Of a stretch of DNA of 64,000 nucleotides, positions 29,679 through 56,866 are shown one piece after another; within the stretch, counting starts at the first letter, position 1; each line of letters starts with the position of its first letter. The notes under the pieces were generated by a model. It had not been told where the DNA came from. It did not search any database and saw only the letters and a list, made by a program, of their open reading frames with translations. The DNA lies in contig NW_026931035.1 in assembly GCF_032062105.1 (NCBI RefSeq), positions 310,001 through 374,000 on the forward strand. The letters run 5' to 3'. Origin of the DNA: Saccostrea cucullata. Lineage: Eukaryota. The position numbers were made by a program, and so were the translations under genes.

Positions 29679-30205
29679 GAAAGACATTGTGTCTCCACAG
29701 GCCGCGGATACTGGCGAAAAAATACCCAGTCCAGGCACCATCACCTCAGGCAATTTTCATCCTAAATCACATGACTCTCCCTTAAACTCGGAACCTCACA
29801 CGCCCGAAAAATCGGACAGATCCACGCCACCCCCAGGGCCGGAGAACCATCCCAACAGGAACCCCAGTCCCTCAGATCTCAAACAGCCATTTTATTCTGG
29901 CTACCACACTCCCAACCTTCAGGATTTTAAGTCGTCTTTCGGAGGGAGCTATCCAAGCCCTGGTGTGGGATTTCCCAAAACTCCGACGAGTCAGGACGGG
30001 GACACCCCCCGGGGTCATCTCTCCCTACAGAGGAGCTTCAGCCTATCCGACAGTTTCCATGACGATAACTCCAACTCCTCCGAGTCATCATTCCTAAATC
30101 CCAACACTGGTCAGCCTAATTACACCCGCGACCCCAACACTGGACAGATCACCTACCAGCCTAATAAGGAGGGAATCTTCTTCTGCCATCTCTGTAGCTT
30201 CTCTG
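29679..30205 (+). CDS. hb: hunchback coding exon 3 (Pro/Ser-rich region and first half of N-terminal finger 1, ...GIFFCHLCSFS)
   Basis: TTCTTCATTTCCTTACAG acceptor; corresponds to ORF 29689..30240; G|GTTGGT donor in phase 1. Confidence 0.9.
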
Positions 30206-32169
30206 GTTGGTATTTAATATTAATTGTCATATTACAATAATCCTATTCAATATTATGCAGACATAAATAATTAACAATACCCACACTTTTTTTTTATGCA
30301 ACATATGCAACATATAAAATGCTCTTACTGAAAACCAAATAAAGGATAAAAACTAAATAAAGGATAAATTGTTTAAATGCATCAGCACAATTTTAATTTG
30401 TGGTCTACCAGGTCCCATAAAATCTTTTATTTTAATTCATACTGGTCCTTTTTTTATGTTTGGGTATTTTTTTAAATACTTTAAAGAAAGTTTAAACCAA
30501 TTAGCAGCAGTTGGCTTTTAAATGTAAGCCGAAAAAAAAAGTGTTCTATGTAAAACAATTATCTATTACGTAATTTCTTTAACACGGTCGGATTATAACA
30601 TTTACTTAAAATAGCTTAATAGTGATATAAAGATTTTGCTTTTCTTTTTTTTTCCATAATGAGATTTTCAATTGGCTAAAAATCAAGCAATATTAATGAT
30701 TACAGCATGCTTGCTCTTTGTAAAGCTGAAATAAATAATTCCAAGGATCTATTTTCATCTTTTGTCCATCCACAAATATCAAAACATTCTAAAAGTCGTA
30801 AACAACTATCTGGAATCATGGAGGGAAAAAAAATCCATTAACAAAAAAATTTAAAGCCAAGTTTATAAAATAGTTTTTAAGAGTCCCTAGATAAAATAGA
30901 TTTTATTTTTATAGAGTTTAAACTTTTTCTAATGATGGCATGATTTACAGGTTTAGTGTTTGAGCTGGGTTAAAAATGGTTAACAAAGTGCCACATAACT
31001 GTGTTGACCCCATGTCTTTTGTTGACACAAAAAAGGGGTGTATATATGCTGAAGGAACCTTTTATGGCCCTGTTGTTTTGTGACCACGTCCATTATCAAG
31101 TGTTTTGTTACTGTAAAAACCTGCCTGTACAAAACTTCTCTCATGTTGACTTAAGACACAGTTTATCTAAAATCAAATATTTAAGATAAGTGGTGCCCTG
31201 AGAGCTGGCCGATATTTTATCAAATATGTAATTATAAATGATCCATTTTCTTGCCACAAACATGTGCATGTACTTCATGTACAAGATACTACATCAATTT
31301 AATTCTGAAGTGAAGCATTAATTAATTTTCTGTTATTGGTGTTCCTTAATAGTACAAGTCTAAATGTCAAAATTGAAAAAACAACATGAAAAATAAGCTC
31401 AATATATAATGTATATCGCTCAATATTTAATATATATATATCATGTACTATTTTTTTTATTTTATAATAATTTTCAAGCAATAATAAAAAAAATCTGACT
31501 ATCATATGGAAAAAAAAGTTTAAATGTCAGAATTCAGAGTTAATTTTCTAGGGCTTTTTGTTCTTGTTAAAGACACACACTTGTCTATATGTATTTATAG
31601 TCCAGCTGATAAAGAGAGATAAACTAAGATCAAAGGTACAATGTTAAGTTCTCAAAAAAAAGATTATACTATCAGCACATGGGGAAAATCACCATGTGTG
31701 GAGATGTTATAAAGGCCTGCTTAACAAATATCACTGAAATATGATCTGAAACAGTATAAAAATAGAAAAGGAAAGTTTGATACAAAAACTATTAAGTTTT
31801 AATAACGAGAGGCCTATAGGCCACAAAACTTACCTGGCTTAACTTTTCTTCATAACAAACAAATTATGAAATGGTCCTTTGTTACTGTTGATATTTCACC
31901 AAATTTATTGTTGCCTTGTATAAAATTTACATATTTATTGTGGTTCTAACTCTTGTCCACATAAATGTGATCTGAATAGATCTCTAATTTACTACCCCTG
32001 GAGATGTGTTAATACACATTAAATTGAATCTTGTCTTTTGGACTCTCTTACTTATCAAAATGCAGGCTAAAAAATTATTCCTTTATAATTTTAAGACAAA
32101 CTTTGATTTTTCAAAGTTGATAATTCACTCTAAGAGGCATTTATACAAATTTTATTTTCTAGAAGCTTT

Positions 32170-32700
32170 ACTCATTCTAAGTTTGAGTTACATATGAACT
32201 ACTTGTTCTGAGTTTGAGTTACATATGAACTACTTATTCTGAGTTTGAGTTACATATGTACTACTCATTTTGAGTTTGAGTTACATATAAACTACTTGTT
32301 CTGTCAGTTTGAGTAACATATGAACTACTTGTTCTGAGTTTGAGTTACATATGAACTACTTGTTCTGTCAGTTTGAGTAACATATGAAATACTTGTTCTG
32401 AGTTTGAGTTACATATGAACTACTTGTTCTGAGTTTGAACTACTACTTGTTCTGAGTTTGAGTAACATATGAACTACTTGCTCTGAGTTTGAGTTACATA
32501 TGAACTACTTGTTCTGTCAGTTTGAGTTACATATGAAATACTTGTTCTGAGTTTGAGTTACATATGAACTACTTATTCTGAGTTTGAGTTACATATGAAC
32601 TATTTGTTCTGAGTTTGAGTAACATATGAACTACTAGTTCTGAATTTTGAGATTGAGTAACATACAGGATCAAGTGGTTTTGAGTTTGAGTAACATATGA
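32170..32700. repeat. 31-bp minisatellite (GAACTACTTGTTCTGAGTTTGAGTTACATAT), ~16 copies
   Basis: Tandem units of 31 bp (some 33-bp variants) ending just before the acceptor of hb exon 4. Confidence 0.95.
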
Positions 32701-32714
32701 CATTTCTTTTATAG

Positions 32715-32929
32715 GAACTACTCGTTCTGACTTTGAGGATCATATGACATGCCACTTTGAGCACATCTGTCCACACTGTGATTACAAGTCTCGGACCGAG
32801 GGCCGACTAAAGCGACACATTAAAGATTTTCACACAGAGGAGTCACCGGACGGTTTTGGTTCCAAACGCAATATGGGAAGACCCAAAATTTTTCGCTGCA
32901 AGCAGTGCGATTTTGTTGCCACTGACAAG
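32715..32929 (+). CDS. hb: hunchback coding exon 4 (GTTRSDFEDHMTCHFEHICPHCDYKSRTEGRLKRHIKDFH...FRCKQCDFVATDK)
   Basis: TTTCTTTTATAG acceptor (phase 1). Completes finger 1, contains finger 2 and starts the first middle finger. AAG|GTAACT donor, phase 0. Confidence 0.95.
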
Positions 32930-33108
32930 GTAACTGAAAAGCATCCTATACTTTAAGTCTTCGTAAGATCTTGCAGAAAAAAGAGCAATTGAGATGTTAG
33001 AGGTTTATCATTAAAGGATAAAAAGAAAATTGTCAAAAATAATTCATAATTCTTAAGGGAAAAAAGTTAATAAAATTGTCTTCAATGATTTCATTTTCTC
33101 TTTTGTAG

Positions 33109-35232
33109 AATGACTTTTGGCAGCATGCTCGATCTCATATCAAGGAGGAGAAACTTCTGCAGTGTCCTCGCTGTGAGTTTGTCACTGAATACAAACATCA
33201 CCTTGAGTATCATCTCCGAAATCATTTTGGATCCAAACCATTCAAGTGCAACAAGTGCAATTACTCCTGTGTAAACAAATCCATGCTTAATTCCCACATG
33301 AAATCCCACACCAATGTGTACCAATATCGCTGTGCGGACTGCACTTACGCCACCAAGTACTGCCACAGTCTTAAGCTTCATCTGCGGAAATACAACCACA
33401 AGCCAGCCACAGTCCTGAATACAGATGGTAGCCTCCCACAGGGGATAGATGCAGAGTCCTCAGGATTGTCTCTGTTACAGAAGAGGGGGCCACCACGGGG
33501 GCCAAGGGGTCCAAGAAAGGATAAGTTTGACCCATTTGTTGGACAGTTTATGATGCCTCACTCACTACCGGGCATGGCTCCAACACTGAGTCCTGGGATG
33601 ATGTCTCCATTTTGGCCTCTGCTCAATCAAGTACCAAACGGACTGCCTCCACCCCATCACCCAATGATACCAACACCACTCAGTGCTAAGCTGCCTTCAC
33701 ATCTTGGGCAAAATAAAATGATGCCATCCTCACCATTTGGTTTCAGGCCCCTCATGCCAGGGAACATGGGTGCACCTTTTAAATGCAATCTCTGCTCATT
33801 TGCCACAGATATTCAGCAGGACCTGCTTCGTCATGTTATGAAAGTACATGCATCAGAAAACTCAGACTTATTTTCCATTTTTGGTATTTCATCAGAAGCT
33901 TTGCTTGAGGAACAAAATAGGAAGATGAATTTCCTTTCACAGCAGCAGGTAACTCCACTTAGAGAATTAACTACACCTGAGAAATCCATTCCCACCTCTG
34001 CAGCTCTTCATATCAAAACAGAACAACCTACTCTAGAAAGTTCCAAAACAAGTCCCCATTCATGGCCTCATCACTCACCACCAAACAGTAAGCCTAACCC
34101 AGAAAGCAGACCAACTAGTCACTACAGCATGCCAGAAATGAACTACAGTTCCTACCTTAATGGCAAAGCTAGTCCCAAAGAAGCAGATGCTCCAGAGGGT
34201 GAAGACATCATCAAACAAATGATGAACAAGTTTGGTTCAGGGGTTCCTATTGAAAAGTCCCAAATTGCTCCAACACTGCAGCTAGAAAGACCATTCCGAG
34301 AAAGTCCACTTGACCTCACAAAATCCTCTAGGTCACCTTCTGATGACATGGATGACCCAGCCAATGATGGGGGAAACCTGTCCAGTGGTGAAAACTCAAA
34401 CACTGCTGAGAATGTGGTGAACAGAAAAAGATCTCGCAAAGGAAAAGCTTTCAAACTGGACACACTCTGTCTGAAACTGCAGGAGAAACAGGCGGACAAC
34501 CCAGAGGAGGAAGAGGAAAGTAACTCAGGGATGGAAGACATGGAAGATGAGCTGCAGATTGATGAAATGAATGAGTACGACAACATGGAAACCAATGAAG
34601 AGGGAGACGATGAAGAACCAAAGAGCAAAGAGCCGAGACTGGGAGAGATGGAGTCAATGACAGACCTTCAGAGGTTTGAACAGATGAGGAAACTTGCAGC
34701 TGCTGCCGATGCAAGTCCAACAGACCAGTTTGAGAGAAGTCCTTCTGCACCAATCAATGAACCAGCTTTTCCCAATGAGTCCAAGGATAAAGTGGATGCA
34801 AGTGAAGAACAAATTGATCCCAAAGAGTTCATTGAGGAGATGAGTAATTTGTCTGAGAACGTTCCTCAGGCTGTCAGAAGAGGGACGGAGCTGGCCTGGA
34901 AGATCATCCAGGACACCACAGGGGCACCTGTCCCCCCACCCGTTACCACGGCAACCTCCAACGGCCACTACAGGAGTGAAGATAATAAACAATTCCCTGT
35001 CTCACAAGACATGCATCTCTTCACAACTAGTACACCAAGGGACAAAAATGGACACAAAAGTGCCAAGTATGAATGCCCTTACTGTGAGATCGCATTTAGA
35101 GATTGTGTCATGTACACAATGCACATGGGTTACCATGGTTACAAGAATCCATTCAAATGTAACATGTGTGGTTACCATGGGCACGATAAGGTGGAATTTT
35201 TTCTCCACATCGCCAGGGAAGCCCACAACTAA
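33109..35232 (+). CDS. hb: hunchback terminal coding exon (middle DNA-binding fingers, extra finger, basic box, C-terminal finger pair)
   Basis: Diagnostic Hb sequences [80 protein letters not shown], and [19 protein letters not shown]...PFKCNMCG...[18 protein letters not shown] acceptor; TAA stop. Confidence 0.98.
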
Positions 35233-36099
35233 ACAATTCTCCACATTCAAAGCAATAAATTATAAGATTTATAACTCAAGGATGAGTTGAGTAGAAACAG
35301 CATATGGACTATAATCATTAGTGCTATTTCTGCTAAGTATTTTTTTCACTTTCTTGATTTTAATGATTTGTTAATGATGCTTTTTTTTAACCGTTATTTG
35401 ACTTTGGTTTTGGGACCAGATGCACCTTGTGGTAGTATTTTGTTGGCAGGTGCTGGCTTTTAGTGCTTTGCTTGAGGTTTTTTTGTCCAAACATGCTAAT
35501 TTTTAAATACAGAAATTAATCCCGGTTTTTCATGGAAAAAAAACTAGTCATTTTATTAAATATTATTTAAAGGGAGAACCATTAGTCCTAAAAAAGTAAG
35601 CTTCATACACTAATTAGTTACAAAAGTAAGCTACATACACTAATTAGTTACAAATTTATACTTAACATATTTAGAAAATGCATGGGTCAAATTTTGTTTT
35701 AAGTCAGTATTTAAATTTTTTTTTCATATTATAACTTTTTATTAAAATACATTCCTTCTCAAGATTAACCCCCAGTAACTTGGCTGGTTGATAGCTTTAC
35801 ATCACCATTATTTATAAAAGTTTACAGGCCTGTTGAAAAAAAATTGTTTGCAAGTTTTATCTGTTTATATTTTTCAGTCAGAAAGGTGCTCAATTTAAAA
35901 ATGTGCTTAATTTAAATCTGCACAAATTGTGCTCTTTCTTGTTTATTGTTATATGTTTTTAGTATATACTGGTAACATTGGTCTTATTGAATTTTTAACT
36001 TATACGTTGTCTGTTGAAATCTTTGATATTTCCACATGGTTCCGACTGTTTTTTTTTTTTTTTTTTTTTTACAACATCACCATAACTAGAATCACCACT

Positions 36100-36870
36100 T
36101 CACTGTGCAATAAGGATCATGTAATCTTTTGTAATTTAAGTTTCATAAAAGTATAACTCAGGGATAAATATTGTGTGCTTTGATTTTATGATGCTCTTGC
36201 CACGAGGACTCCTCTACAACCCCCCATCCCCACCCCTTTTTGTCCACTAGGTTTCCTTAACACACCCCACCCCCCTTTTATCCACTAGGTATCCTTAACA
36301 CACCCCTATCCCACCCCACCCACCCTCTATTAACTAGATATAGAGTACTGTATCTATAATTACGTGAATTTTCACTGTTTGCAATTGTACTAATTTTTTT
36401 ACTGTAATTAAATGTTTAAATCAGTGTAGTTTTGATGTCAGTTCAGATATATATGTTTATTTATAAAATGTCGACCATTTCTGTCATTTTTATTGTACAT
36501 ACAATTTTTCTATATAATCCAGCAATACTAGTAGTAATACAGTGTGTATAGTATTTTTTTTAAATCCAGCTGTGTGTTATTTATAGTTCTATAGTGTATG
36601 TGTATTTTATCATTTACCCTCAGTGGAGGATTTTTTGTGTAATTCAGCAATAACTTGTACATACATATAAGTAACACTTTACGTGGGCATTGACATTTAT
36701 AGTCACATTTTTTTTTTACTATATTAGCCAGCGTCTACCTCAGTAGCTGATTATCGTTAGCGTTTTCAATCACTCGCCTTGATTTCATGTACAGCAAAGC
36801 CTAAGAAATATATGAGAGCAGATAGAGTTATCTCCCTTAAGATGGTCACTCTTCACAATGGCTACCTCTA
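36100..36870 (+). promoter_or_regulatory. hb 3' UTR regulatory cluster: miR-92, miR-125/lin-4, miR-31 and let-7 (x2) seed sites plus Pumilio/NRE-type elements
   Basis: GTGCAATA 36105; CTCAGGGA 36157; TCTTGCCA 36195; ATTGTACATA 36492; TGTACATA 36656; CTACCTCA 36735; CTACCTC 36862. Confidence 0.7.
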
Positions 36871-37773
36871 TTAGCAGATCATTGCCAGAGACAATTCAAA
36901 ATTGAATTGATATGCATTTTAATTACTTTAATGATATTTTAAATTGAGGAACATTTTAAAGTCCACCTAAAAAGAGATTTTTGAAATGTATAATTTTCAC
37001 AAGATCAGCTGTTCTTTTTAACAGCTGTGCAGATTAATTTGGCTGTTTGAAGTCTAGAATTTCAAAGTTACAAATATTTAAAAAGAAGTAAAAATATGTA
37101 TTTTTTAAAATTTTAATTGTATCTTTTAGCATGGAATATATTCTAGTGTTTTATGCACAGTCATTAAGTGTTATTTATTTCACTCATCCAAACATTTTTC
37201 ATCTATTTATTATGTTACCCCTTATGGTAATTAAATTTTTAATTACACATCTTAATTCACAATTCTTTAGCATCACACACCTTCCCCGAAAGTGGGACAC
37301 ATCTTAACCAACACATGGTCATTATCTAAAATATTCCATAATAAATCATCATCTTAATTTAGCTCTTCAATTTTTATCTTCTGGATTCCCACCATTATTA
37401 TATGAAGTTGCTCAGAATTAATGAAAACTACATTCCAAAAACTCTTGCCATCTCTGAATTGGGAATCCTTTATCGGCAGGGATAAAAGACATCATTTTGC
37501 CCAGAAAAAGAGCATGTAAAAAATATAATGTGTTTTTATTTGAATTATTTCAATATCAGCTAATGATATGTAATAGTTTAATGCAAGAAATTGATTTAAT
37601 TCTTTGTTTTCCAATTACAGGTGTTTGTGTAAAATGAAAGTAGTTCTTGAACTGCCAATCTACTTTCTAATTAATTAAGATCCTCGTATATATCTTATTT
37701 AATTTGATGTTTATTATAGGGTTAGTCTATTTCTTATCATTAATTGTCAGTGATTAAATGTACTAAGTGGTGT

Positions 37774-37810
37774 AATAAAAATATGCAAATCACCTTCAGT
37801 GTTTTAATGT
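37774..37810 (+). terminator. Candidate hb polyadenylation signal
   Basis: AATAAA at 37774-37779 followed ~20 nt later by CA and a GT/T-rich stretch (CAGTGTTTTAATGTTTTT). Confidence 0.5.
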
Positions 37811-38237
37811 TTTTACAAAGAAGAGAATTCCTGCATAGGACATAAGAAACAGAGAACACACTTCTGATGAACAGTTGCTTACAGCAGAGTGATCCTCATT
37901 CCTCAAAGTTTCAAAATGATCATTATATGCTTATAATACAGCAAAATTGGCTAGTTCATGATTAGCATGTTTTATCAACTCTAATCATACTAATATATAA
38001 TTAGACAGAGAGTTTACCTAGTACATGGAAAATGGGAAAACAAAAAATATTTAATGAACTTAAAATCTATAAAACCCAAGCTTTGATTTTGATAAATCAG
38101 AGTCGTAAAAGAAGGCCACAAGACAGTGTCAATGTAAGATACTTTACCAAATTTTCTCAAATCTGATGAATTTTTTTCAGACTTGAGATACTTTTCCCTT
38201 TGGAAAATACAAAGAAAAAGTTTGCTTGTGAGTTTTA

Positions 38238-38840
38238 AGGCCCTGGGCAACAACACTCACCTGCTTGAGTATATTTGGCCCTGTCTTTGTAACAGAATTC
38301 CCCCATTGGGGCCCCACCCTACCCCTGGGGACCATGATTTCAACAGTTTAGAATCTACGCTATCTTAGGATGCTTCCACATAAGTTTAATCTTTTCTGGT
38401 CTAGTTGTTTCTTAATAAGAAGATTTTTCCGATATATTTCATTGTAAAACTTTGATACCTTTTTGTTGCATCACCATACAAATGGGGACCATGATTTGAA
38501 CAATTAAGAATCTACACTACCCCAGGATGCTTCCACATAAGTTTCATCTTTTCTGGCCCTGTGGATCTTGAGAAGAAGATTTTTCAAGATTTTTCCTATA
38601 TATTTCATTGTTAAACTTTGACTCTCTATTGCAGCCCCACCCTACCCCCGGGGATCATGATTTGAAGAATTTAGAATCTACACTACCCCAGGATGCTTCC
38701 ACATATATTTTATCTTTTCTGGCTAAGTGATTCTTGAGAGGAACATTTTCAAAGATTTTTTCCTGAACAGTTCATTGTAAAACTTTGACTCCTTGTTGTG
38801 GCCCCACCCTAGCCCTGGGGAACATGATTTAAAATCTACA
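38238..38840. repeat. ~160-bp satellite-like tandem units (~4 copies), probably the internal array of a Helentron/HINE-type element
   Basis: Recurring GCCCCACCCTACCCC..GGGGA.CATGATTT..AGAATCTACACTACCCCAGGATGCTTCCACATA units. Degenerate relatives near 48800 and 51570-51990. Confidence 0.7.
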
Positions 38841-40457
38841 GCATGTACCTACTTCTTTCATACTAAGATTACAATTCTTACAAAAAAATGATTTAAGAGA
38901 GGATTCAAACACTTGACTCTTGGATCTTCAGCTGAGAGTATATCTACTTTCATTCTGCTCGTAAATTTTGACATTTAAACTTGAATTTATTACATACTGT
39001 AGTAGAGCACTCTGTGCAGTTCTGTAGGATAAATAATGTAACCAATCAGAGGTCACAAATCCAACAATTCCAATCTAAATTACGTTAGCATATATATGTT
39101 AAAACTATATTGTCTGAAGTTACATGCTTTGAACATAATTGTATCATAGATGGGAGATAAAATCGGTTGGAATGGATTCTAGAAAACCATACTATCTATT
39201 TGCAAAACCCTTTCTTTTTCACAAAATCTTGACAGATTTTGCAGAGTTGTGACACTTGTTCAATATACAATTAGGCCATTCCAATTTTTTTCTATGTTTA
39301 GTGTCCGTGTGCGCCTTGGTTTTTGACACCCCATGAAAAACACCCAATGATCATGAAATGAATGAAAAATGTCCCTTATTTACTTTATACACCTTGAAAG
39401 TCATGATCAACAAATATACACTCAGCATTTGAATTTTTGCTGACTTATATCATTATATGTTTTGTCTCCCTCTTTCACTGAAAGTGGGGGATATTAATTT
39501 GGGTCTGTGCATCCATCTATATTTCTGTCTGTGTGTGCAACATTTTCATTTCTTGATGATAGGGCAAGAAGCCTTAGAGCTCTCTACGCAAAACATTGTC
39601 TAGATGATAAATTTAGTTTTCTTTGAGCTTTGAAAATTCAATATCACAACTTCCAATGGTCTAAAGATGAACCCCGTCAATTTTGAGGTCAAAAGGTCAG
39701 AGATCATACATTTTATACATTCTATTTAACACTTTTTTTTCAAACTGTCTTAAAATCAATCTGAGAATTTGCAATGAAATTTTACATCACAACTCCCCAT
39801 GACCTTTAAAACCTCTCAATTCACAAAAGTCAAGATCAGAAATACAAATAACTTTAAAAAGACTTATATTGTCTTAAAGGCCAAAATATAAAAGGTTATG
39901 GTTGACTTTTTTTCTCTCTGAAATATAGACAAACAGACAGCTAGACAGACAGACCCAAATCAATACACCCTACTTTTAGTAGAAGCAGGGGGATATTTTG
40001 ATTTGTGGCATGCAAGAAAAGTTTTTGTTAAAATGTAAAACGGAAATATAAAACTTCTTAAGTTTCTAAATCAAATTTGCAATTTGTTTTAGTGTATTTG
40101 AATTTGGCACAAATGAAGATCATGGGCTCCTTTTCTTTTTTGATCACTTTTTCCTTCATTCCATCTAATTTGAGTGAGATAAAAATTGCTGGAGCAACCA
40201 GTTCAAACAAAGTATTTATAAGAAGCAAACTTATCTTTTATTTGTGCCAAAACACAAAAAAGATAGAATCTTTACAACTGAAGTGAAGTAACCGTGAAAC
40301 CCTCACCATTTTACTGTTAAAGTTTAACATCTTTGTTTAGAAATAGAAAAAAAAGTCAAAGCAAAGTTTATATTCTTCATTTAAAATGTCAAATAAAATC
40401 ATGCAAACAAAATTGTCAACAAACAAGAACATGTGGTTACTTCTGAATCAGTGTCTA

Positions 40458-40535
40458 TCAAGAAAATGCTCTGCACATGGCCACTGTGTGATCCACCCCA
40501 CAAAACACTCGCAGGATCTCAGCAGGAACCGACAC
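40458..40535 (-). CDS. RCC1L: RCC1L last exon (VSVPAEILRVFCGVDHTVAMCRAFS*)
   Basis: TTTCAG acceptor, phase 0. Resembles the RCC1L/WBSCR16 C-terminus (CGVDH motif). Confidence 0.9.
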   Translation of the reverse strand: MSVPAEILRVFCGVDHTVAMCRAFS

Positions 40536-41253
40536 CTGAAATAAAACCATTCTACCTTTAACTTTCACTTTCATCTTGTAAGCTTTTTCATTTTGTAAGC
40601 TTTTAGGAAAAGTTTGGCCAGAACCTTTATCTTCAAAACTATTCATTACAATTCAATTTTTATAACATATTGCACATTATACAATATTCAATTTTAAAAC
40701 TGCTCTCAAAGTCATAGGGAAAGAAGATTTATAGGGGACTATTTCTTATGGAAGAAGGATATTTAGAAGAAAATTCTTCAAATCTACACATCTGTTAGTT
40801 TTAATATCTTAGAACTTAAGCCCTAGTATATATTGTTACTCAGAGAATATTTTCCACTAATATATGCCAGTAATATTAAATATTGGTTTCAATGTATATT
40901 TTTTTAAAAAATCTTACACATTCACATGTAAATATGTTAAAGATATATATATCAAAACCACTATTTGTACTGCAATTTTGAATCACGCTAGATGAGTACT
41001 TATGTAAAATATCCTTCTAAAAAAATTCTTGATAATGGGTACATATATACCATAATCTTGAAAAAACAAAAAAATTAAAGTTTAAATACCAATGTCAAAA
41101 CACTTTACATTTTGCTGAACAGTCATGACTTTTATTAATGAAGGAAACAATGGTTAGATCATGTACTATCCTAATAAGCTTATATAAAATAGCTTCAGAC
41201 TTCTGTAAAATATATATGAATTATATACGGGTAGTTGTGCTGAAGTTCCTTAC

Positions 41254-41345
41254 CCTGAATGGGTATGTCTGGTCCATTCTCTCCGCGATATAAATTCCCA
41301 GGCAGCCTTTCTGATTCTTTCCCCATACGAACATTTCATAATCAT
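41254..41345 (-). CDS. RCC1L: RCC1L exon (DYEMFVWGKNQKGCLGIYIAERMDQTYPFR)
   Basis: RCC1 repeat VWGKNxxGCLG; AG/GTAAG boundaries with compatible phases. Confidence 0.9.
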
Positions 41346-41734
41346 CTGAAAGAGAAAAACTTGCGAGACCTATGTGTCACACTGCTAACCAGAGTACTTT
41401 GGCCAGGAAATTGAAAACTTTAATATCGGTGGCATATTACTGGTCAAAAAGATGGGGGGAGGGGAGTATTGGAAAATTTGTACTTACTTGAATCTATAAA
41501 TAATATAGGATGCTTTGATTCATAATTCTTTGACTATAATCATGTAATTAGAATTTTAAAAAATTTATATACATATTTCTTTTCATTATATACCCAACTG
41601 CGTAAAACTCAATTTTACTGCTGAATTTACGTAATCACATGACGTCGTGATCCGACTTTCTGGATCACCACACTGTGGTTTTCTGAATCTATATCACCAT
41701 TCTCTGAAACTGATGATGTGTGCTAGCACGTTTC

Positions 41735-41804
41735 GTTGACAGGCGCAGATCATCAGATCAAACTTGAGGCTTCTTGTTTGATCTGATGATCTGTGCCTGT
41801 TAAC
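41735..41804. repeat. 70-nt hairpin (29-bp stem, 12-nt loop)
   Basis: GTTGACAGGCGCAGATCATCAGATCAAAC pairs with GTTTGATCTGATGATCTGTGCCTGTTAAC. Confidence 0.9.
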
Positions 41805-42150
41805 TCTACATACTACGACTCTTCGGATCAAGTTACTTATCTATATGTTTGATCTTCTATTGTGGCCCAATTTACCCAGTGGGTCATGGATTGATTAAAT
41901 TTATAATAATTATCTACAGTACTTCTGCAATACTCTTATCCCCTTCTTTGAAGTGGCCCACTTTCATCCCCAAGATGATCATTTTTCCAGCATGTAAATT
42001 TCACCAAGGGATAAGTCAATAGCTACGGAGGCCTTTGCCCATTATGCAAATTATCCCACATTTCCAACTATCCTTGATGCCCTTGCATACTCTACTAACT
42101 AGACAGTGATTTCTTAAATGCATATCTATATAAATGAAGTATATACACAC

Positions 42151-42324
42151 TTGTTCTGGCTGCAAAGTGGTTGATGCCACAAGTAACGTCCACGACAAGT
42201 TTTTCCGGTGCTAATTCGTTCCGACCAAACAACGTGGGGGGTATTGCCTGGGGGGTGCTGGATGACTGGACATTAGGTCCCAGCCCTAATGATCCAAATC
42301 CCCATACAAGTACCTCATTATTAT
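42151..42324 (-). CDS. RCC1L: RCC1L exon (DNNEVLVWGFGSLGLGP...VTCGINHFAART)
   Basis: RCC1 repeat motifs; TTTCAG acceptor and GTGTGT donor, phase 1/1. Confidence 0.92.
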
Positions 42325-42660
42325 CTGAAATAAACAAGTACCTCACTCTTATCTGAAATATACAATACAAGTACAAGTACCCCATTCTAAGCTGAAATAT
42401 ACAATACAAGTACCTCGTTTTAATCTGAAATATACAAGTACCCCATTCTTATCTGAAATATACAAGTACCCCATTCTTATCTGAAATATACAAGTACTCC
42501 ATTCTTATCTGAAATATACAAGTACGGTACCCCATTCTTATCTGAAATATACAATTACCCCATTCTTATCTGAAATATACAATACAGGTACCTCATTCTT
42601 ATGTGAAATATAAAACGTAAGTACCTCATTCTTATCTCAAATATACAATACAAGTACTTC
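42305..42660. repeat. 28-33 bp minisatellite (TACAAGTACCCCATTCTTATCTGAAATA), ~11 copies
   Basis: Tandem units; the first unit straddles the RCC1L exon/intron boundary. Confidence 0.92.
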
Positions 42661-42932
42661 TATAATATACAATGAATGTGGATAAATTCTTATGAGAAAG
42701 GTAATTAAGCAAGTGCAATAAATATGCTTAAAAATATGCTTATAATGCCATGATATTTTATTTTTATGCTGTTCTTCTTAAAAAAATTTTTACCACGATA
42801 TCTTTTGAAAAATTCAGGTTTAAACCCTGTGTGTTTGAAATAAAAATTTGTTGTTAGTTCCACAGAGATTTTGTTATATATACCTGTTACACTGTACTTT
42901 GAGGGGAACCTGTTTCGGCCCTGTATATATAC

Positions 42933-43196
42933 CTGTCAGCACGGCACACTTTGACCCTGCCGCTGCTGCCTTGGTAACGGGGTGGTGGAGTGGGATGTGT
43001 CTGGGGACGGACACCTGTGTCTCCTCTGTAATCATGGACAACTGTCCGTACTCTGAGTTCCCCCAGCCGAACAGATCCCCTCGCTCCGATACCGCCAGCA
43101 CGCAGTCCGCCTTACTGGCTAGCTGTACGATCCTCTCCCCAGCAATGTCTCCACCCACTAAAGATGGCCGCCACTCACAGTGGTAATGTTGTAAAC
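42933..43196 (-). CDS. RCC1L: RCC1L exon (GLQHYHCEWRPSLVGGDIAGE...LFGWGNSEYGQL...CAVLT)
   Basis: LFGWGNSEY is characteristic of RCC1L; canonical splice sites, phase 1/1. Confidence 0.95.
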
Positions 43197-43516
43197 CTGT
43201 CAGAGAAAGTCATTTATGATATAGCTCATCTTAACTAGGGCATGAGTTAGAGAGAGTAACAACTAAAATGTAAAACATACGATTGTTACCCTTCACTAAA
43301 GTAATTTATTCCATGTTGAGCTTTGTGAATTACTATATTTATATTCTTTGCATTTATCTATCAAATTATATCATAAAGAAAAAATCTTACATTGTTAGTT
43401 TAAATTTGTTTCGAGACATAAAGTACTCATGTATAAAAATAAGTCTGTGAGCAAATGCTCATTAGTAATACCCCTGTGCTAATGTGAATATACCCTCTCA
43501 TATTCACATGTTTATT

Positions 43517-43677
43517 TAAGGAATAACCGTCTTATTTTTCGATTTCATGAAGTGATCAATGGATTGGCTTGCATGATAATTTGCATAAACGCCGAAGGCA
43601 TTTATGCATAAAATTATCACGCAAGCCAATCGATTGATCATCTTCATGAAATTGAAAAATCTGACAGTTATTCCTTA
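43517..43677. mobile_element. 160-bp fully palindromic foldback MITE
   Basis: TAAGGAATAAC...GCATAAACGCC-GAA-GGCATTTATGC...GTTATTCCTTA; the arms are complementary along the whole length. Confidence 0.8.
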
Positions 43678-44055
43678 TATTTACATGCTTTGATTCCGCC
43701 AATCCACGTGCTCCAAGCACTGCTTCTGTCTAGCTGTTTGTCCCGCCCTGCACGTGGTTTTTTTTGGAACCGCACCAAAACATTGATGGGGGAATAAAGT
43801 ACATTTACAATTGGTAATTTTATCTCGGACAAAGACATTAGAAATGTAAATACACAGAAATGAATCCCACCATATGGCATGCCTAAACAAAGAGTGTGGT
43901 AAAATTTTCAATCAGTTGTTGACAAACTGTGGTGGAAATTTGTTATGGACAGACACATAGAGAACATGGGTAAAACAGTACACCCCCTCTCAATTGGAGG
44001 GGGAGTATAAGAAATCTACAGTTTATTTATTTGTGTTATATATATATTTACCTAC

Positions 44056-44140
44056 CTGTTTGACCATCAGCTCCTAGACCACAACTGTACACCTGTCCAC
44101 TGCTCGTCAAGAAAAAAGAGTGGTCTTGTCCACAGACAAC
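44056..44140 (-). CDS. RCC1L: RCC1L exon (VVCGQDHSFFLTSSGQVYSCGLGADGQTG)
   Basis: CGQDHS...GADGQTG motif; TTTTAG acceptor, GTAGGT donor. Confidence 0.95.
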
Positions 44141-44773
44141 CTAAAAAAAAAATAGGAGTACATTTAATGAAAAAACCTGAAACAATAGGAGTACATTTAC
44201 TGACACAGTCTGACAAAATAGGAGTACATTTACTGACACAACCTGAAACAATAACTGTACATTTACTGACACAACCTGACACAATACGATTACATTTACT
44301 GAAACAACCTGAAACAATAGGGTACATTTACTGACACATCCTAAAACAATAGGTAAACATTTACTGACACAACCTCAAACAATAGGAGTACATTTACTGA
44401 CATAGCCTAAAACAATAGGTGTACATTTACTGACACAACCTAAAACAATAGGTGTAAATTTACTGACATAACCTGAAACAATAGGTGTAAATTTACTGAC
44501 ACAGCCTAAAACAAAAGGAGTACATTTACTGACACAACCTAAAACAATAGGTGTAAATTTACTGACATATCCTAAAACAATAGGTGTACATTTACTGACA
44601 CAACCTGAAACAATAGAGTACATTTACTGACACATCCTAAAACAATAGGTAAACATTTACTGACACAACCTCAAACAATAGGTGTACATTTACTGACAAA
44701 ACCTAAAACAATAGGTGTACATTTACTGACACAACCTGAAAAAATAGGTGTACATTTACTGACACAACCTGAA

Positions 44774-46246
44774 ACTAGAAATATGTCCATAGGACATGAA
44801 TGCCCCGCCAAGGATATATTAGTAAAGCAACATGAAAATTCGTATGTGTATAAAATTTGATCAGTTTGGTTCAGGTAGGGGTTATAGTTACTCTGGGAAT
44901 AAAAATGTATATAGATCCAGCATCCGAAGCAAGTCTGGTAGTGTCCATCCCTAGATGCATCATCCATGCAAGTTTGGTTCAGGTAGGACTTATAGTTACT
45001 TGGGAAGGAAAATGTAGGTCAGATCCAGCATCCGAAGCAAGTCTGGTAGTGTCCATCCCTTGATGCATCAACCATGCAAGTTTGGTTCAGGCAGGGCTTA
45101 TAGTTACTAGGGAATAAAAATGTAGGTCAGATCCAGCATCCGAAGCAAGTCTGGTATTGTCCATCCCTTGATGCATCATCCATGCAAGTTTGGTTCAGGC
45201 AGGGCTTATAGTTAATGGGAATGAAAATATAGGTCAGATCCAGCATCCGAAGCAAGTCTGGTAGTGTCCATCCCTTGATGCATCATCCATGCAAGTTTGG
45301 TTCAGGCAGGACTTATAGTTACTTGGGAATGAAAATATAGGTCAGATCCAGCATCTGAAGCAAGTCTGGTAGTGTCCATCCCTAGATGCATCATCCATTA
45401 AAGTATGGTTCAGGTAGGGCTTATAGTTAATGGGAATGAAAATATAGGTCAGATCCAGCATCCGAAGCAAGTCTGGTAGTGTCCATCCCTTGATGCATCA
45501 TCCATGCAAGTTTGGTTCAGGCAGGACTTATAGTTACTTGAGAATGATCATATATGTCAGATCCAGCATCCGAAGCAAGTCTGGTAGTGTCAATCCCTAG
45601 ATGCATCATCCATGCTAGTTTGGTTCAGGTAGGGCTTATAGTTCCTTGGAAATGGACCTACTCCAAAAACTTTAACCTGGTCACTCATCTGGATAATGTA
45701 GGTCAGATCCAGCATCCGAAGCAAGTCTAGTAGTGTCCATCCTTAGATGCATCACCCATGCAAGTTTGATCCCAGTAGGGCTTATAGCTCCTTAGGAATG
45801 GACTTGCTCCAAAAACTTAACCTGGTCACTCATCTGGAAAATGTAGGTCAGATCCAGCATCTGAAGCAAGTCTGGTAGTGTTCATCCTGAGATGCATTAT
45901 CCATGCAAGTTTGTATCAACATGTGAAGTTTGATAACACCATCTTGAATGGTATGTTTAAAACTGAGCTGAAATACTTTAAGAAAAGTGAAGTCAAGGTC
46001 AAAGGAAAGGTCAAGGTCAAAAAATGTTGATGCAGTTGCATAGCTCTCATCAATATCTATCAGCATTATGAAGTTTGATGAAAATATCTTGCATAATTTC
46101 TTTGAAACTTAGCTATAAACAGAGCTAAACGCAAAGTGTGACGGAAGGACAGAAGGACGGAAGGACAGAAGGACGGAAAGACGGAAAGACGGAAGATGGA
46201 CATGACAAACACTATATGCCCCGGCCATATTCATGGCGGGGCATAA
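44774..46246. mobile_element. Non-autonomous Helentron/HINE-type element with internal 108/146-bp tandem repeats
   Basis: Begins ACTAGAAA..ATGCCCCGCC. Contains nine AGATCCAGCATC-containing units, a GACGGAA-type microsatellite and a terminal ATGCCCCGGCCAT..ATGGCGGGGCAT hairpin. Inserted in an A-run (TT on the other strand) with no evident TSD. Confidence 0.75.
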
Positions 46247-46362
46247 AAATAGGTAAACATTTACTGACACAACCTCAAACAATAGGTGAACATTTCCTGA
46301 CACAACCTCAAACAATAGGTGAACATTTCCTGACACAACCTGAAAAAATAGGTGTACATTAA

Positions 46363-46953
46363 AGTGGCACAGTGACGCACAAGGGGGAAAATTGACAAAT
46401 GTAGAATTTTCACATAACCTCTGTAAATTTTGTTCAATTCCTTAAAGTATTAGGTTTCAGAAAATTACAGGTTTCAGAACCTAAAAATTAAAATTTTATG
46501 GGGAAAAATAAAAGTAAAAATAATTTCTGTCTGCCCCAGAACGAAAATATTGCAAAATACCCTTCTTCCTTCCTATCATACGCGTGTGCAGAAAAGTGTT
46601 TAATAAGTTTCCATAGTTACCATGGTCTCAGGTATCCACGAATGAATATAAGTAAACCAAAAAATTTGATGCAATCTTTTTAAAAAGTTGTTAGAAGATA
46701 TTTCTCACCTTTGCAAGCTCCAGTTGAATTTTGTTTACAAGTTTGAGCTAAAAATAAGAGTAGCGTGACCTTGACATATACGAAACAACGAAACGGTTAA
46801 TACAACCTTTGTTTTTCCGGCACTTATATTGTGCAGTCAATTCTTGCAGTTGAATTGTCATATCTTCGCTATATACTCATAATTTTCGTAAGTCTTTCTC
46901 TGTATGCTACAGAATCTTAAAATTAAGATATGAATTTGACTCACTGTGCCGCT
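46363..46953. mobile_element. Non-autonomous TIR DNA transposon at a TTAA-like site (Kolobok/piggyBac-like)
   Basis: TIRs AGTGGCACAGTGA / TCACTGTGCCGCT; flanks TTAA and TTTA; interrupts the 33-bp array. Confidence 0.7.
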
Positions 46954-48159
46954 TTTACTGACACACCCTAAAACAAGAGGTGAACATTTACTGACACAAC
47001 CTCAAACAATAGGTGTAAATTTACTGACACAACCTCAAACAATAGGTAAACATTTACTGACACAACCTCAAACAAGAGGTGAACATTTACTGACACAACC
47101 CAAGTTAATAGGTGTACATTTACTGACACAACCTGAAAAAATAGGTGTACATTTACTAACACACCCTAAAACAAGAGGTGAACATTTACTGACACAACCT
47201 CAAACAATAGGTATAAATTTACTGACACAACCTCAAACAATAGGTAAACATTTACTGACACAACCTCAAACAATAGATGAACATTTACTGACACAACCCA
47301 AGTTAATAGGTATAAATTTACTGACACAACCTCAAACAAGAGGTGAACATTTACTGACACAACCTCAAACAATAGGTAAACATTTACTGACACAACCTCA
47401 AACAATAGGTGTACATTTACTGACACAACCTCAAACAATAGGTAAACATTTACTGACACAACCTCAAACAATAGGTGAACATTTACTGACACAACCCAAG
47501 TTAATAGGTATAAATTTACTGACACAACCTCAAACAAGAGGTGAACATTTACTGACACAACCTCAAACAATAGGTAAACATTTACTGACACAACCTCAAA
47601 CAATAGGTGTACATTTACTGACACACCTCAAACAAGAGGTGAACATTTACTGACACAACCTCAAACAATAGGTGTAAATTTACTGACACAACCTCAAACA
47701 ATAGGTGTACATTTACTGACACAACCTGAAAAAATAGGTGTACATTTACTGACACAACCTCAAACAAGAGGTGAACATTTACTGACACAACCTCAAACAA
47801 TAGGTGTATAAACAACAACTTTTTAAGAGACAAATCCTAAGCCTTCAAAGGACTCTAAACCATACTAATATACATTAAATGAAAATAGTTGCACAAACAG
47901 ATTTTAATTTAAAGCTTGATTTTAAGATTCTTAAAATTAAATACATGTAATAATAACCACATCCGTTGGATTTAAATGCCATGTGTTCAACAACCACCCA
48001 GGCAAAAGAATGGCTTAGAGCAAATATAGCAAGTATTACCAAATTGTAGGTGTTCATTTCATAGTTGTTTTTGAAGGGATATTAACATTTATTTATTAAT
48101 ATAATATTAATAATAACATTAATATTATAAAATTAGACTTTATCCTGTAAATGCCATTG

Positions 48160-52520: not shown

Positions 52521-52572
52521 CTTTACTATATCAGAAGGTAAGTCAGTCACCTTGTTTACCACCTGGCTGCCT
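52521..52572 (-). CDS. RCC1L: RCC1L exon (GSQVVNKVTDLPSDIVK)
   Basis: TTTAG acceptor and GTGAGG donor; phases 2/0 bridge the neighbouring exons exactly. Confidence 0.85.
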
Positions 52573-53422: not shown

Positions 53423-53428
<6 letters not shown>

Positions 53429-53907
53429 TTTTTCAGACCAGTGTGCTACAAATATAGCTTTTTTTTACAACTAAACAGCTTGCACTATAGTTTTGTCATG
53501 AAGTATGGTATAATGACATCAAAATGGACTATTTCTAATTTGCAAAGAAAAATATTTGGAAATGTAAATATTTCAGAATGTCTTACTTGTATATTTCTCC
53601 TTCCACTATTTTTCTACCACACTACTACAAAAGTCCATGGGCATTCATCCGGCAAACGAACCCAGTAACAGCTAACTTTTTTTGTGTGCAATTAATATAC
53701 ACTTTTTTCAATAGGTGGCACTGTAGCTCCCTAGTCACCCTTCCCATTTTTTCAGACCAGTGTGCTACAAATCTGCAGCTTTTTTTTACAACTAAACAGC
53801 TTGCACTATAGTTTTGTCATGAAGTATGGTATAATGACATCAAAATGGACTATTTCTAATTTGCAAAGAAAAATATTTGGAAATGTAAATATTTCAGAAT
53901 GTCTTAC

Positions 53908-53974
53908 TTGTATATTTCTCCTTCCACTATTTTTCTACCACACTGTCCATAGGCATTGTGTCCCAAACTGAAAA
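53908..53974 (-). CDS. RCC1L: RCC1L exon (VFSLGHNAYGQCGRKIVEGEIYK)
   Basis: RCC1 motif GxNxYGQCG; TTTTGTCAG acceptor, GTAAGA donor; phases 1/2. Confidence 0.92.
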
Positions 53975-56866
53975 CTGACAAAAGAATGGGCATTCATTGT
54001 ATCAACAAAATAAGAGGAAGCTCATAAATTGATAGCAGACAAGTATCAGTTTCTAGTTTCTCTAAGAAAACAAAATCATTGGACATGATAGACAATGATA
54101 AAAAACAAGGGTGCAAGTCCAGTTAATTCTGAGGTTATAAGCAGGAATCAAATAGGTGTGTGATTAATAATTAGATAGTTTGTACCAGTCAGCTGTATAT
54201 TTTACAGTAAGTTGTTGCATTAAGGTTTAGGTCTTGTAAATCATGTAAGCCATTTCTACATGATAAATAGAAATTAACGAGGCAGATAATGACTGATGTA
54301 TTCATCAAGTACCAGGCAATCATTGATGAGTTTAAAAATTATGCTTATCAGTATCACTTGTGTTGTTAATTAATTCAAGTTGTACAGATTAACATCCATA
54401 CTACTTTTGAAGATAAACTTATGATTTTCTTGTCTGCCACCTCTGAAAATCAAACATGTCTACTACTTGCCCATTTATATATCATAATTATACAGAATAT
54501 AACTTTCCAAAAATACATCTAAACAAATACTGTTTGGGAAAGAGAAGATTAGAAAATTGTTTTTCAACTCTTTTCATAGTGACAAACCGCATTAAAACTA
54601 GAAACTTGTTGACATGGCAACAAGTCTTTCTTGGTTATATGTGATATAGCACGCAGGAAGGAATCATACAAATACCTGCTATACGTAGACCCCCCCTCAA
54701 AAAACCCACTAAATTGTAATTTTTTTCAGAAACTGTAAAGGAAAATGGAAACCAGAAGTCTCTCATGAGACTTAAGCTCTACTGGTTTGAACTTAAAATG
54801 AAGGAGGAGAGAAGTTGCACTTGGACTTTGAAAACTTTGCAACTATAATAAACTGAATAATTATCCTTGTTTAGTCTCTTTTTGTGGCAAAATTTATCAC
54901 AATCAGACTAAGACTGTATTTCATAGAAATTTCTATTTAAAATAACATGACAGCACCATTCATTGAAAATATAAAAAAAAAAATAGAATATGTATTATCT
55001 TAGTTTAGTCTGTGTGTGTGAGGAGTAATTATATCAAATTCAGACCAAACTGGAAGGAATGTTTGTCCAAAAACATTAACAAGGGCCTTGAATCGCTGAA
55101 ACTTTGTCTGGTACAATGAAACACACTAAAATCACTTCTATGATGTCTAACTATATGTACACAGAATAAAACCTTTAAATTGAAAAGTGCTCCAAAAAAC
55201 TTAACCTTCATTTTGACGTTTAAAAACTCGACGCCGAAGACGCCAGGATAATCAACTGACAAATGTGATGATTCTAAGCCCCTTATTGGTATTATCCAAG
55301 AACCCAAAATGCATCAATTGACATTAGTTTAATGATCAATAAGTAGGTGTGTGATTAATAATTAGAAGTTTGTACTCACTGTATATTTTGATATTGAATA
55401 TTAAGGTTTAGGTCTTGTAAATCATTAAGCCATTTTTAAGATAAATAGAAATTAACAAGCTTTAAAATGAGAGAAAAACCTGGCAATTTTTATTAAAAAT
55501 TGAATAACTTGTGTTGTTAAAAATTGAAAACAAAAAAACATTCTACTTTTGAAGATTATCTTATGAAGTTTTGAAGAGTGAAAATCAAACATGTCTACTA
55601 CTTGCCCATTTATATATTATTTAATTATTTATTTGTTCACTTAATTATTGTATAATTGTTTCTAGTACTTACAATCACTTGTATTGTTGACAGGCAACAA
55701 GTTTTATAGTGATATACACACGGAATCATACAAATACCTGTTTATGTAAAAATCATTAAAAATTTTTTCAGGAAATTAAAGCAAAAAGTAATTGCTTTGA
55801 ATATTTCTGGTTTGAACCGTTAGGAGAGAATTGTTGGACTTTGAAAACTTTGGTATAAATTTGTAGGAGTTATCAGTGTAGTCTCTTTTAGTAAGGCAAA
55901 ATTAATCTGGAACATACTAAGAGTATTTCATAGAAATTTCTATTTAAAACAATCATTACAAATTTGATATATACCATTCAATATTTTTTTAAAAATATGT
56001 GTGTGAGTGCATTTAACGAACTTCACATGAGATTTGTTAATCCCAAATAATGGCATAAAACTTATCCTTTTTGGAAGAACTATCCTGTAATATAAATAAA
56101 TTTTTTTAATGCAAGATGTATTTATTTTTTTATCGAGAGCCCAGGATAATCAACTGACAAATGTGATATTCGAAGCCCCTTATTGGTATTATTCGAATAT
56201 CATCAATTGACATTAGTTTAATGATCAATAAGTATATGAGATATTTAAATATAGCCATAAAATGTCTAAAGTAAGTCACTGTGACCTACTTTATGGTTGA
56301 GAATCTCCGTAAACCCAAGATAAATCAACTGACAAAGTTTGAAGATTCTAAGCCAATAAGTACCTGAGATACCTAAATATAGCCATAAATTGTCAAAAGT
56401 AGGTCACCGTGACCTACTTTTTTGTCAACCATCTCCGAAGACCCAAGATGCATCAACTGACAAAGTTTGATGATAATAGGTCTGAAAGTATTTAAAATAT
56501 GCCATTTTAATAATTTGAAAACAATTGCCTGAAAAATTTTAAAAGTAGGTCACTGTGAGCTACTTTTTGATAAAAATATTTTAAGGCCTCAAGGTGCATC
56601 AAATTACAAGGTTTGATGATTCTAAACCTCTCAGTATCTGAATGAATTGCCTTAAATATTTTAAAAGATATAAGCCATAAAATTCAAAAAGTAGTTAATT
56701 TGACATTGTTTGAGGACTCAGGATGCATCAACTTTCTTTTTCATTAATACACAACAAGATTACCACTTTTCCTAAGTATTAAGAATAAAATTAAAATTTG
56801 TGAAAGTGCAAGGATGTGTCAATCAAACCATCCAAAATTTTGAAGTTTCAATAACTTTTAGATGAA

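What the first reader, a model, noticed from the sequence alone, without database searches (positions are those of the whole stretch)
32170..47808. Recurrent pattern: minisatellites nucleated at 3' splice junctions
Seen: the three large minisatellites in the window that are not internal to transposons (32170-32700, 42305-42660, 44141-47808) all sit at the 3' end of an intron relative to their host gene, on opposite strands. All have 28-33 bp units resembling the adjacent acceptor and/or exon start. Inference: a systematic process duplicates junction sequence into the upstream intron (e.g. slippage or repair at the intron/exon boundary), and only expansions that preserve the last acceptor survive. 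This creates arrays of decoy acceptors and is raw material for exon extension or intron gain by tandem duplication.
Basis: partly seen in the sequence, partly recalled or inferred. Interest (0 to 1): 0.7.

Follow-up and report, generated by a model that had tools for sequence, protein, structure and literature searches.

The report
Exon-edge "mirage" repeats across bivalve genome
Three repeats in two neighbouring genes of a probable oyster are head-to-tail copies of exon edges, a type already named "mirage" in lancelets; in a sample of about 1,100 introns such repeats are roughly four times commoner than chance and sit mostly at exon ends rather than exon starts, and they are likely tolerated by-products of DNA duplication.

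Summary
The three arrays are real and locus-specific, and each copies an adjacent exon start. Array 1's repeating unit is exon-only and lacks the junction AG, so it is not a decoy-acceptor array. This is the known "mirage" class (amphioxus; human F7-type VNTRs). The scan has noted it before: 14 findings in at least 10 genomes, plus two more in this genome.

I tested the pattern on 1,088 annotated introns from 81 other regions. Of 33 minisatellites with 3 or more copies, 23 are junction-anchored, against 5.8 expected from target size (P 3e-11; 4e-6 under a stricter null). They favour donors 19:4, so the acceptor-specific claim fails. Two-copy seeds are barely enriched (12 of 37), so the excess arises mainly during expansion (odds 4.8, P 0.004). 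Probable alleles differ by 2.6 vs 16 and 5 vs 30 copies.

In a related species' RNA, the true acceptor of array 2 carries 60 reads and its decoys none. I found no intron gain. Best reading: tolerated by-products filtered by splicing; the cause of the extra expansion is inferred, not shown.

The parts
29680..30205 (+). Upstream coding exon of the zinc-finger gene (hunchback-like; name recalled); donor GT at 30206
   Evidence: Joined to 32715 it gives an open frame with a complete CxxC-x12-HxxxH finger across the intron; RNA depth in a relative, but no joint listed
32152..32700 (+). Array 1: about 16 copies of a 31-bp unit equal to the first 31 nt of the next exon; only the distal copy keeps an acceptor (AG 32161-32162)
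   Evidence: TRF 32175-32647 x15.3; 26/31 identity to the exon start and acceptor scores; multi-copy array also in a relative's DNA contigs
32715..32929 (+). Host exon of array 1 (C2H2 zinc fingers); true acceptor AG 32713-32714
   Evidence: junction inferred from coding continuity, not seen in RNA
33109..35232 (+). Last coding exon of the zinc-finger gene
   Evidence: 707-aa open frame, Pfam zf-C2H2
42151..42324 (-). Host exon of array 2 (RCC1 repeat; RCC1L/WBSCR16-like, name recalled); true acceptor AG 42325-42326
   Evidence: RNA joint 42324->42933 in 27+17+16 reads of three runs of a relative; Pfam RCC1
42304..42657 (-). Array 2: about 11 copies of a 28-33-bp unit spanning acceptor and exon start; 9 of 11 decoys keep AG
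   Evidence: 251 bases shorter in a relative's DNA contig
44056..44140 (-). Host exon of array 3 (RCC1 repeat); true acceptor AG 44141-44142
   Evidence: its donor joint 43196->44056 seen in RNA
44141..44775 (-). Array 3, proximal block, 33 bp x about 19; 16 of 18 detected decoys keep CAG/TAG
44776..46247 (.). Inserted non-autonomous element with its own 108/146-bp internal repeats and a 3' hairpin (Helentron/HINE-like, label recalled); splits array 3
46248..46360 (-). Array 3, middle block, 33 bp x 3.4
46361..46953 (.). Inserted element with about 14-bp terminal inverted repeats in a TTAA/TTTA context (Kolobok-like MITE, label recalled); splits array 3
46954..47808 (-). Array 3, distal block, 33 bp x about 26; 18 of 22 detected decoys have weak GAG
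52521..52572 (-). Exon upstream of the 8.4-kb intron that holds array 3
   Evidence: open spliced frame
53427..53944 (-). Two-copy duplication across the DONOR of exon 53908-53967 (37 exon nt + about 160 intron nt; copies 53746-53944 and 53427-53623)
   Evidence: 196 identical bases; exon frame

Best explanation
These are 'mirage' minisatellites, tandem copies of exon edges lying in the neighbouring intron, and they are likely tolerated by-products that splicing mostly skips, enriched because exon-containing seeds expand more often than intron-only seeds, probably through misaligned recombination or repair anchored in the exon. Steps: (1) Shown: the units derive from the adjacent junction, are unique to their locus, and occur at both intron ends with a donor bias. 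(2) Shown statistically: two-copy seeds are at or near background frequency at junctions, whereas arrays of 3 or more copies are about fourfold enriched. (3) Inferred: selection removes duplications that break the frame or the outermost working site. A donor needs only about 6 intron nt to survive, an acceptor its pyrimidine tract and branch region, which would give the donor excess. (4) Partly shown: the exon-side copy is the one used. (5) Inferred, about 40% likely: in a highly polymorphic genome exons are the islands of homology between alleles, so strand invasion and misaligned exchange concentrate at exon edges and grow or shrink the arrays there.
For: Enrichment: 23 of 33 arrays vs 5.8 expected (P 2.8e-11); 10.3 expected with introns capped at 300 nt (P 3.9e-6); 14.8 at 150 nt (P 0.0025); within-region null P 4e-12; best-supported introns only 14 of 24 vs 4.1; events spread over 21 of 81 regions. 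Arrays of 5 or more copies: 14 of 16. Expansion odds ratio 4.8, P 0.004. The junction term survives adjustment for GC and period (LRT P 0.03, n=72, before six more near-duplicate regions were dropped). Shuffled introns give only 0-3 chance arrays. Donor units carry less intron than acceptor units, and 19:4 fits a 70:30 filter (P 0.26). Decoy GT/AG do not decay faster than neighbouring bases. Probable allele pairs: 2.6 vs 16 copies and 5 vs 29.6 copies at the same junction, 3 vs 3 at a third. In one pair, exons are 97.7% identical while about 11 of 32 introns differ in length by more than 10% (my count). RNA of a relative: 60 reads at the true array-2 acceptor; zero depth over 42428-42826 and 44157-44260. 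Human F7 experiments show that only the most upstream identical donor is used (PMC1557585, passages).
Against: The expansion mechanism is not shown. My test for inter-allele refreshing, excess synonymous differences between decoys and true exon, was not significant (20 vs 16.7 expected, P 0.24). Polarity was weak (proximal decoy closer to the exon in 14 vs 9 arrays). Junction units are GC-richer than interior ones (0.39 vs 0.27), so composition may contribute. The sample is four gene families, rates differ between them (8/586 dynein vs 16/240 kinesin, P 0.0006), and the dynein subset alone is not significant under the capped null (P 0.051). The strictest null on the best introns gives P 0.09. 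The RNA comes from a related species (most reads 90-95% alike) in which array 2 is short, and only 15 of 77 joints were displayed. The array-1 junction had too few reads. Some human arrays do use their second and third donors (6-16, CBS; PMC1557585 introduction).
Confidence: 0.72

Rival explanations
1. One reading: a process specific to 3' splice junctions builds arrays of decoy acceptors.
For: All three large arrays in the window are at acceptors; arrays 2 and 3 keep many strong AG decoys.
Against: Donor:acceptor is 19:4 for arrays of 3 or more copies and 12:2 for 5 or more; the window has a donor duplication too; array 1's unit lacks the junction AG.
Confidence: 0.04
2. Composition or chromatin, not homology: GC-richer, exon-like sequence slips or mis-processes lagging-strand flaps more often, so any unit containing exon sequence expands more.
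For: Junction arrays GC 0.39 vs interior 0.27; donor units average 59% exon.
Against: AT-rich junction arrays also expand (GC 0.21-0.32: window arrays 2 and 3, k260, m12612). GC is not significant once junction status is in the model (P 0.16). Exon CpG depletion, a methylation proxy, does not predict rate (P 0.27).
Confidence: 0.2
3. Transcription- or splicing-coupled instability (polymerase pausing, R-loops or RNA-templated repair at the 5' splice site) makes junction seeds expand.
For: The donor bias would fit; the mechanism itself is recalled, not tested.
Against: The donor bias is already explained by the survival filter (P 0.26 vs 70:30); births are barely enriched.
Confidence: 0.15
4. 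The arrays are selected: decoy sites tune splicing or expression, or seed new introns.
For: Decoys often keep full-strength sites (33 GT copies at one junction). Arrays 1 and 3 are also present, at least in part, in a relative. Only 1 of 12 acceptor units is a multiple of three.
Against: Copy number differs five- to six-fold between probable alleles; no decoy use seen; no array spans a whole intron; transposons sit inside array 3.
Confidence: 0.06
5. The enrichment is an artefact of my annotation or of the assembly.
For: Junctions were predicted by my own spliced aligner; in one case it picked the last decoy as donor; the null depends on how intron target size is counted.
Against: It holds for introns with homology on both sides and under two stricter nulls. 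Arrays hamper annotation, so many were left out of the counted set. Units vary in sequence, and a relative's independent DNA shows arrays 1 and 3.
Confidence: 0.05

Closest known systems
Amphioxus 'mirage' minisatellites (Adh3; globins BflGb6, BflGb9; troponin C; PGBD5). Seen: passages of PMC3087553 and PMC3902484. The original Adh3 paper (Canestro 2002) was not held, so it is known here only through these citations.
   Same: Tandem copies of an exon-intron boundary at either intron end; units of tens of bases (Adh3 10-72 bp); many but not all keep AG/GT; copy number differs between haplotypes; normal splicing; intron gain proposed.
   Different: Here a bivalve. Those passages describe single genes and call the mechanism unclear, while here frequency is measured against a null: about 2% of sampled introns carry one with 3 or more copies (23 of 1,088), donor-biased, with the excess at the expansion step.
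Human splice-donor VNTRs: F7 intron 7 (37 bp), CBS intron 13, 6-16, LAMIN B2, PDGF. Seen: abstract and passages of PMC1557585.
   Same: The first unit spans the exon-intron boundary; the pseudo-sites are intact yet mostly silent; length polymorphism.
   Different: A handful of human genes, all donors in those passages; the three window arrays are acceptor-side; prevalence in the sampled bivalve genes looks far higher, though no human rate was measured here.
Variable internal tandem repeats at exon-intron boundaries in human segmental duplications (De Grassi and Ciccarelli 2009). Seen: passages of PMC2812944.
   Same: Minisatellite units of about 30 bp at exon-intron boundaries; proposed route to new introns.
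   Different: Concerns recent paralogs and documents structure changes; here ordinary conserved genes, with no intron gain seen.

Membership tests
Mirage minisatellites | Tandem units copied from the host gene's own exon-intron boundary | tested here: met
   Arrays 2 and 3 span the acceptor. Array 1's unit is exon-only, with an acceptor only in the distal copy, so it is a trimmed derivative.
Mirage minisatellites | Born in place, not carried by a dispersed repeat | tested here: met
   Each array matches only its own locus. In the sample, 0 of 33 arrays with period 15-125 match two or more other regions, whereas 19 of 19 with period over 125 do.
Mirage minisatellites | Many, not all, units keep AG or GT | tested here: met
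   Array 2: 9 of 11 AG. Array 3: 21 CAG/TAG and 22 GAG of 43. Donor arrays mostly GT.
Mirage minisatellites | Both 5' and 3' boundaries can be duplicated | tested here: met
   19 donor and 4 acceptor arrays; donor duplication in the window.
Mirage minisatellites | Copy number varies between haplotypes | tested here: met
   2.6 vs 16 and 5 vs 29.6 copies in contig pairs with 98% identical exons; allelism inferred. Not tested for the three window arrays themselves, beyond a shorter array 2 in a relative.
Mirage minisatellites | Normal splicing at the exon-side site | tested here: inconclusive
   True acceptor used and decoys uncovered for array 2, no depth over the proximal decoys of array 3, but in a related species; array 1 too little RNA.
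Mirage minisatellites | Somatic instability | not testable with these tools
   Needs tissue DNA from one animal.
Intron gain by tandem duplication (Rogers model) | An intron wholly made of repeat units, resembling both flanking exons | tested here: not met
   0 arrays reach both junctions in 1,088 introns.
Transposon-borne satellites (Helentron/HINE-type) | Dispersed copies inside element termini | tested here: not met
   Not for the three arrays; met only by the 108/146-bp repeats inside the insert at 44776-46247.

The most novel reading that the evidence does not exclude
Exon edges are the main nursery of locus-specific minisatellites in hyper-polymorphic marine invertebrates. Duplications are born roughly at random, but those touching an exon expand about five times more readily because meiotic strand exchange is confined to exons, the only islands of homology between indel-ridden alleles. 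Most long unique minisatellites in these genes are therefore splice-site arrays, giving thousands of natural experiments on splice-site choice.
Probability: 0.33. Interest if true: 0.62.

Novelty: new member of a known kind. Interest (0 to 1): 0.4.

Why it matters
The repeat type is known, but as far as nine literature searches show (open-access library only) it has been described gene by gene, not measured. The sample suggests about 2 in 100 introns carry one, and that 14 of 16 long arrays in annotated introns are junction-derived. If that scales, the genome holds thousands of polymorphic arrays of intact pseudo-donors and pseudo-acceptors. That makes two open questions testable with existing data: how the spliceosome picks one of many identical sites, and why minisatellites start where they do. 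It is also a practical trap for gene prediction: my own aligner chose a decoy donor once.

Tried and rejected
Acceptor specificity: rejected (19:4 donors). Inter-allele refreshing of decoys from exon alleles: a first look showed 37 synonymous vs 36 non-synonymous differences (P 0.014), but with the empirical mutation spectrum and unit age the excess vanished (20 vs 16.7, P 0.24). Purging of decoy GT/AG: not seen (decoys were located by similarity, which biases decay downwards). Unit length in multiples of three: none for donors (7 of 25); 1 of 12 for acceptors, too few. Germline methylation proxy (exon CpG o/e): no link. Consistent microhomology at breakpoints: estimates were too noisy in old arrays to judge. 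RNA test of the array-1 junction: only 13-45 reads per run on the whole stretch, no joint. The kinase protein search was not used in the annotation. Dropped before the final count: 13 of 95 fetched regions as probable alleles or recent duplicates (7, 6), one region with no confident intron, and all introns failing the support filter. Supplements of the cited papers were not read; the globin paper's additional files bear on unit-level comparison.
Full report
Setting. The window lies in an animal genome of 1.17 Gb. It looks like a bivalve; earlier scan notes call it an oyster, which I did not test. It holds a + strand C2H2 zinc-finger gene (hunchback-like, name recalled) and a - strand RCC1-repeat gene (RCC1L-like, name recalled). 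Both splice into open frames with canonical GT-AG introns. Four RCC1-gene joints are seen in three RNA runs of a related species.

Observation. Array 1 (TRF 32175-32647, 31 bp x 15.3) repeats the first 31 nt of the exon at 32715 (26/31 identity). Its units lack the junction AG. Only the distal copy has a matching acceptor (7.8 bits vs 10.2), so the likely history is one junction-spanning duplication followed by amplification of its exon-only part. Array 2 (42304-42657) spans the acceptor (25/28 identity); 9 of 11 decoys keep AG, eight scoring 7.1-9.4 against 9.9 for the true site. Array 3 is about 48 copies of a mostly intronic 33-bp unit in three blocks split by two inserted elements. Proximal decoys keep CAG/TAG (16 of 18) and distal ones are mostly weak GAG (18 of 22). 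All three match only their own locus. A relative's DNA contigs show array 1 as a multi-copy array, array 3 at least in part, and array 2 shorter by 251 bases. The window also has a two-copy duplication across a donor at 53427-53944.

Genome test. I located dynein heavy chain, myosin, kinesin and kinase genes by Pfam, independently of repeats, and fetched 1.52 Mb in 95 regions. I annotated introns with a spliced protein-to-DNA aligner, homologues and leave-one-out profiles. After dropping probable alleles, 1,088 introns in 81 regions remained. The null places each array's founding unit at random on junction-spanning versus intron-internal positions of the collapsed introns. Of 33 arrays with period 15-125, 3 or more copies and score 100 or more, 19 are donor-anchored, 4 acceptor-anchored and 10 interior; 5.8 junction arrays are expected (P 2.8e-11). 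With introns capped at 300 nt, 10.3 are expected (P 3.9e-6); at 150 nt, 14.8 (P 0.0025). For introns with homology on both sides it is 14 of 24 (P 3.7e-6, 0.003 and 0.09 under the three nulls). For 5 or more copies it is 14 of 16. All 19 arrays with period above 125 are interior and dispersed. In all fetched DNA, 45 of 69 comparable arrays touch a predicted exon (my count, lower-confidence annotation). Rates differ by family, so four families cannot give a precise genome-wide rate.

Birth versus expansion. Two-copy duplications are junction-anchored in 12 of 37 cases (6.5 expected, P 0.017; 11.4 under the capped null, P 0.48). Chance arrays in shuffled introns number 0-3. The odds of having expanded are 4.8 times higher for junction seeds (P 0.004), and the junction term persists beside GC and period (P 0.03). 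So the excess is mainly in which seeds grow. Probable allele pairs differ at the same junction by 2.6 vs 16 and 5 vs 29.6 copies, while a third pair has 3 and 3, which shows ongoing length change.

Filter and splicing. Donor units hold a median of 20 intron nt and acceptor units 35. A surviving donor needs little intron, whereas a surviving acceptor must carry its pyrimidine tract and branch region (established splicing knowledge). A rough 70:30 expectation fits 19:4 (P 0.26). Only 2 arrays lie inside 152 kb of exon, both in-frame doublets. Decoy dinucleotides do not decay faster than their neighbours. In the relative's RNA the true array-2 acceptor carries 60 reads, and no depth lies over 42428-42826 or 44157-44260; only 15 of 77 joints were shown, and it is not the same species. 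No array fills an intron from end to end, so intron gain is not seen.

Mechanism. I commit to neutral duplication, a splice-site filter, and exon-anchored expansion. For the last step I favour misaligned exchange with the homologue (about 40%). Allelic exons stay 96-99.8% identical while introns often differ by large indels, so exon-derived units are the ones with a reliable partner. This is inference: the synonymous-excess test was not significant and polarity was weak. Composition and transcription-coupled instability remain open.

Known systems. This meets the tested features of amphioxus 'mirages' (PMC3087553 and PMC3902484, passages) and resembles human F7/CBS-type VNTRs (PMC1557585, abstract and passages) and boundary repeats in human duplications (PMC2812944, passages). 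Nine searches returned no mollusc report and no count against a null, but the library lacks most subscription journals. The scan has noted such arrays before, in ctenophore, urchin, octopus, mussel, shark, camelid and this genome (unchecked notes).

Verdict. Real, a new member of a known kind, and not acceptor-specific. What this work adds is the measured enrichment, the donor bias and the expansion-stage excess. Interest 0.4.

Noticed in passing
window 53427-53944 (-): Near-perfect (196 identical bases) two-copy duplication across a donor, copies 319 bases apart, ending next to a (TA)30 run; a very recent duplication or an assembly artefact.
   Followed up: partly
window 54150-55640: Two diverged copies of a several-hundred-base non-coding segment about 1.1 kb apart, seen by eye.
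   Followed up: no
window 44776-46247 and 46361-46953: Two different non-autonomous transposons inserted inside array 3, so the array predates both; the blocks on either side differ in acceptor type (CAG/TAG proximal, GAG distal).
   Followed up: partly
window 2819-2934: 28-bp x 4 array not tied to any exon that I identified.
   Followed up: no
L182 (myosin region; array 7144-10000 on the gene strand): 21-bp donor-like unit repeated at least 136 times, running off the fetched stretch; the longest array seen.
   Followed up: no
L223 (G000:C21725:186001-196000): One kinesin gene with four arrays, three at predicted junctions, including 33 copies of an intact donor that fill about 93% of their intron.
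   Followed up: partly
L222 (G000:C21725:248001-258000): The same 40-bp acceptor array appears twice, about 9.7 kb apart, suggesting a tandem gene duplication that copied an existing array.
   Followed up: no
L045-L049 (contigs C846, C10314, C6622, C21038, C23021): Several dispersed copies of one dynein AAA exon, the two translated ones sharing the same internal stop: a multiplied gene fragment, possibly carried by a transposon.
   Followed up: no
sampled gene families: Junction arrays are about five times rarer per intron in dynein heavy chain genes (8 of 586) than in kinesins (16 of 240); unexplained.
   Followed up: partly
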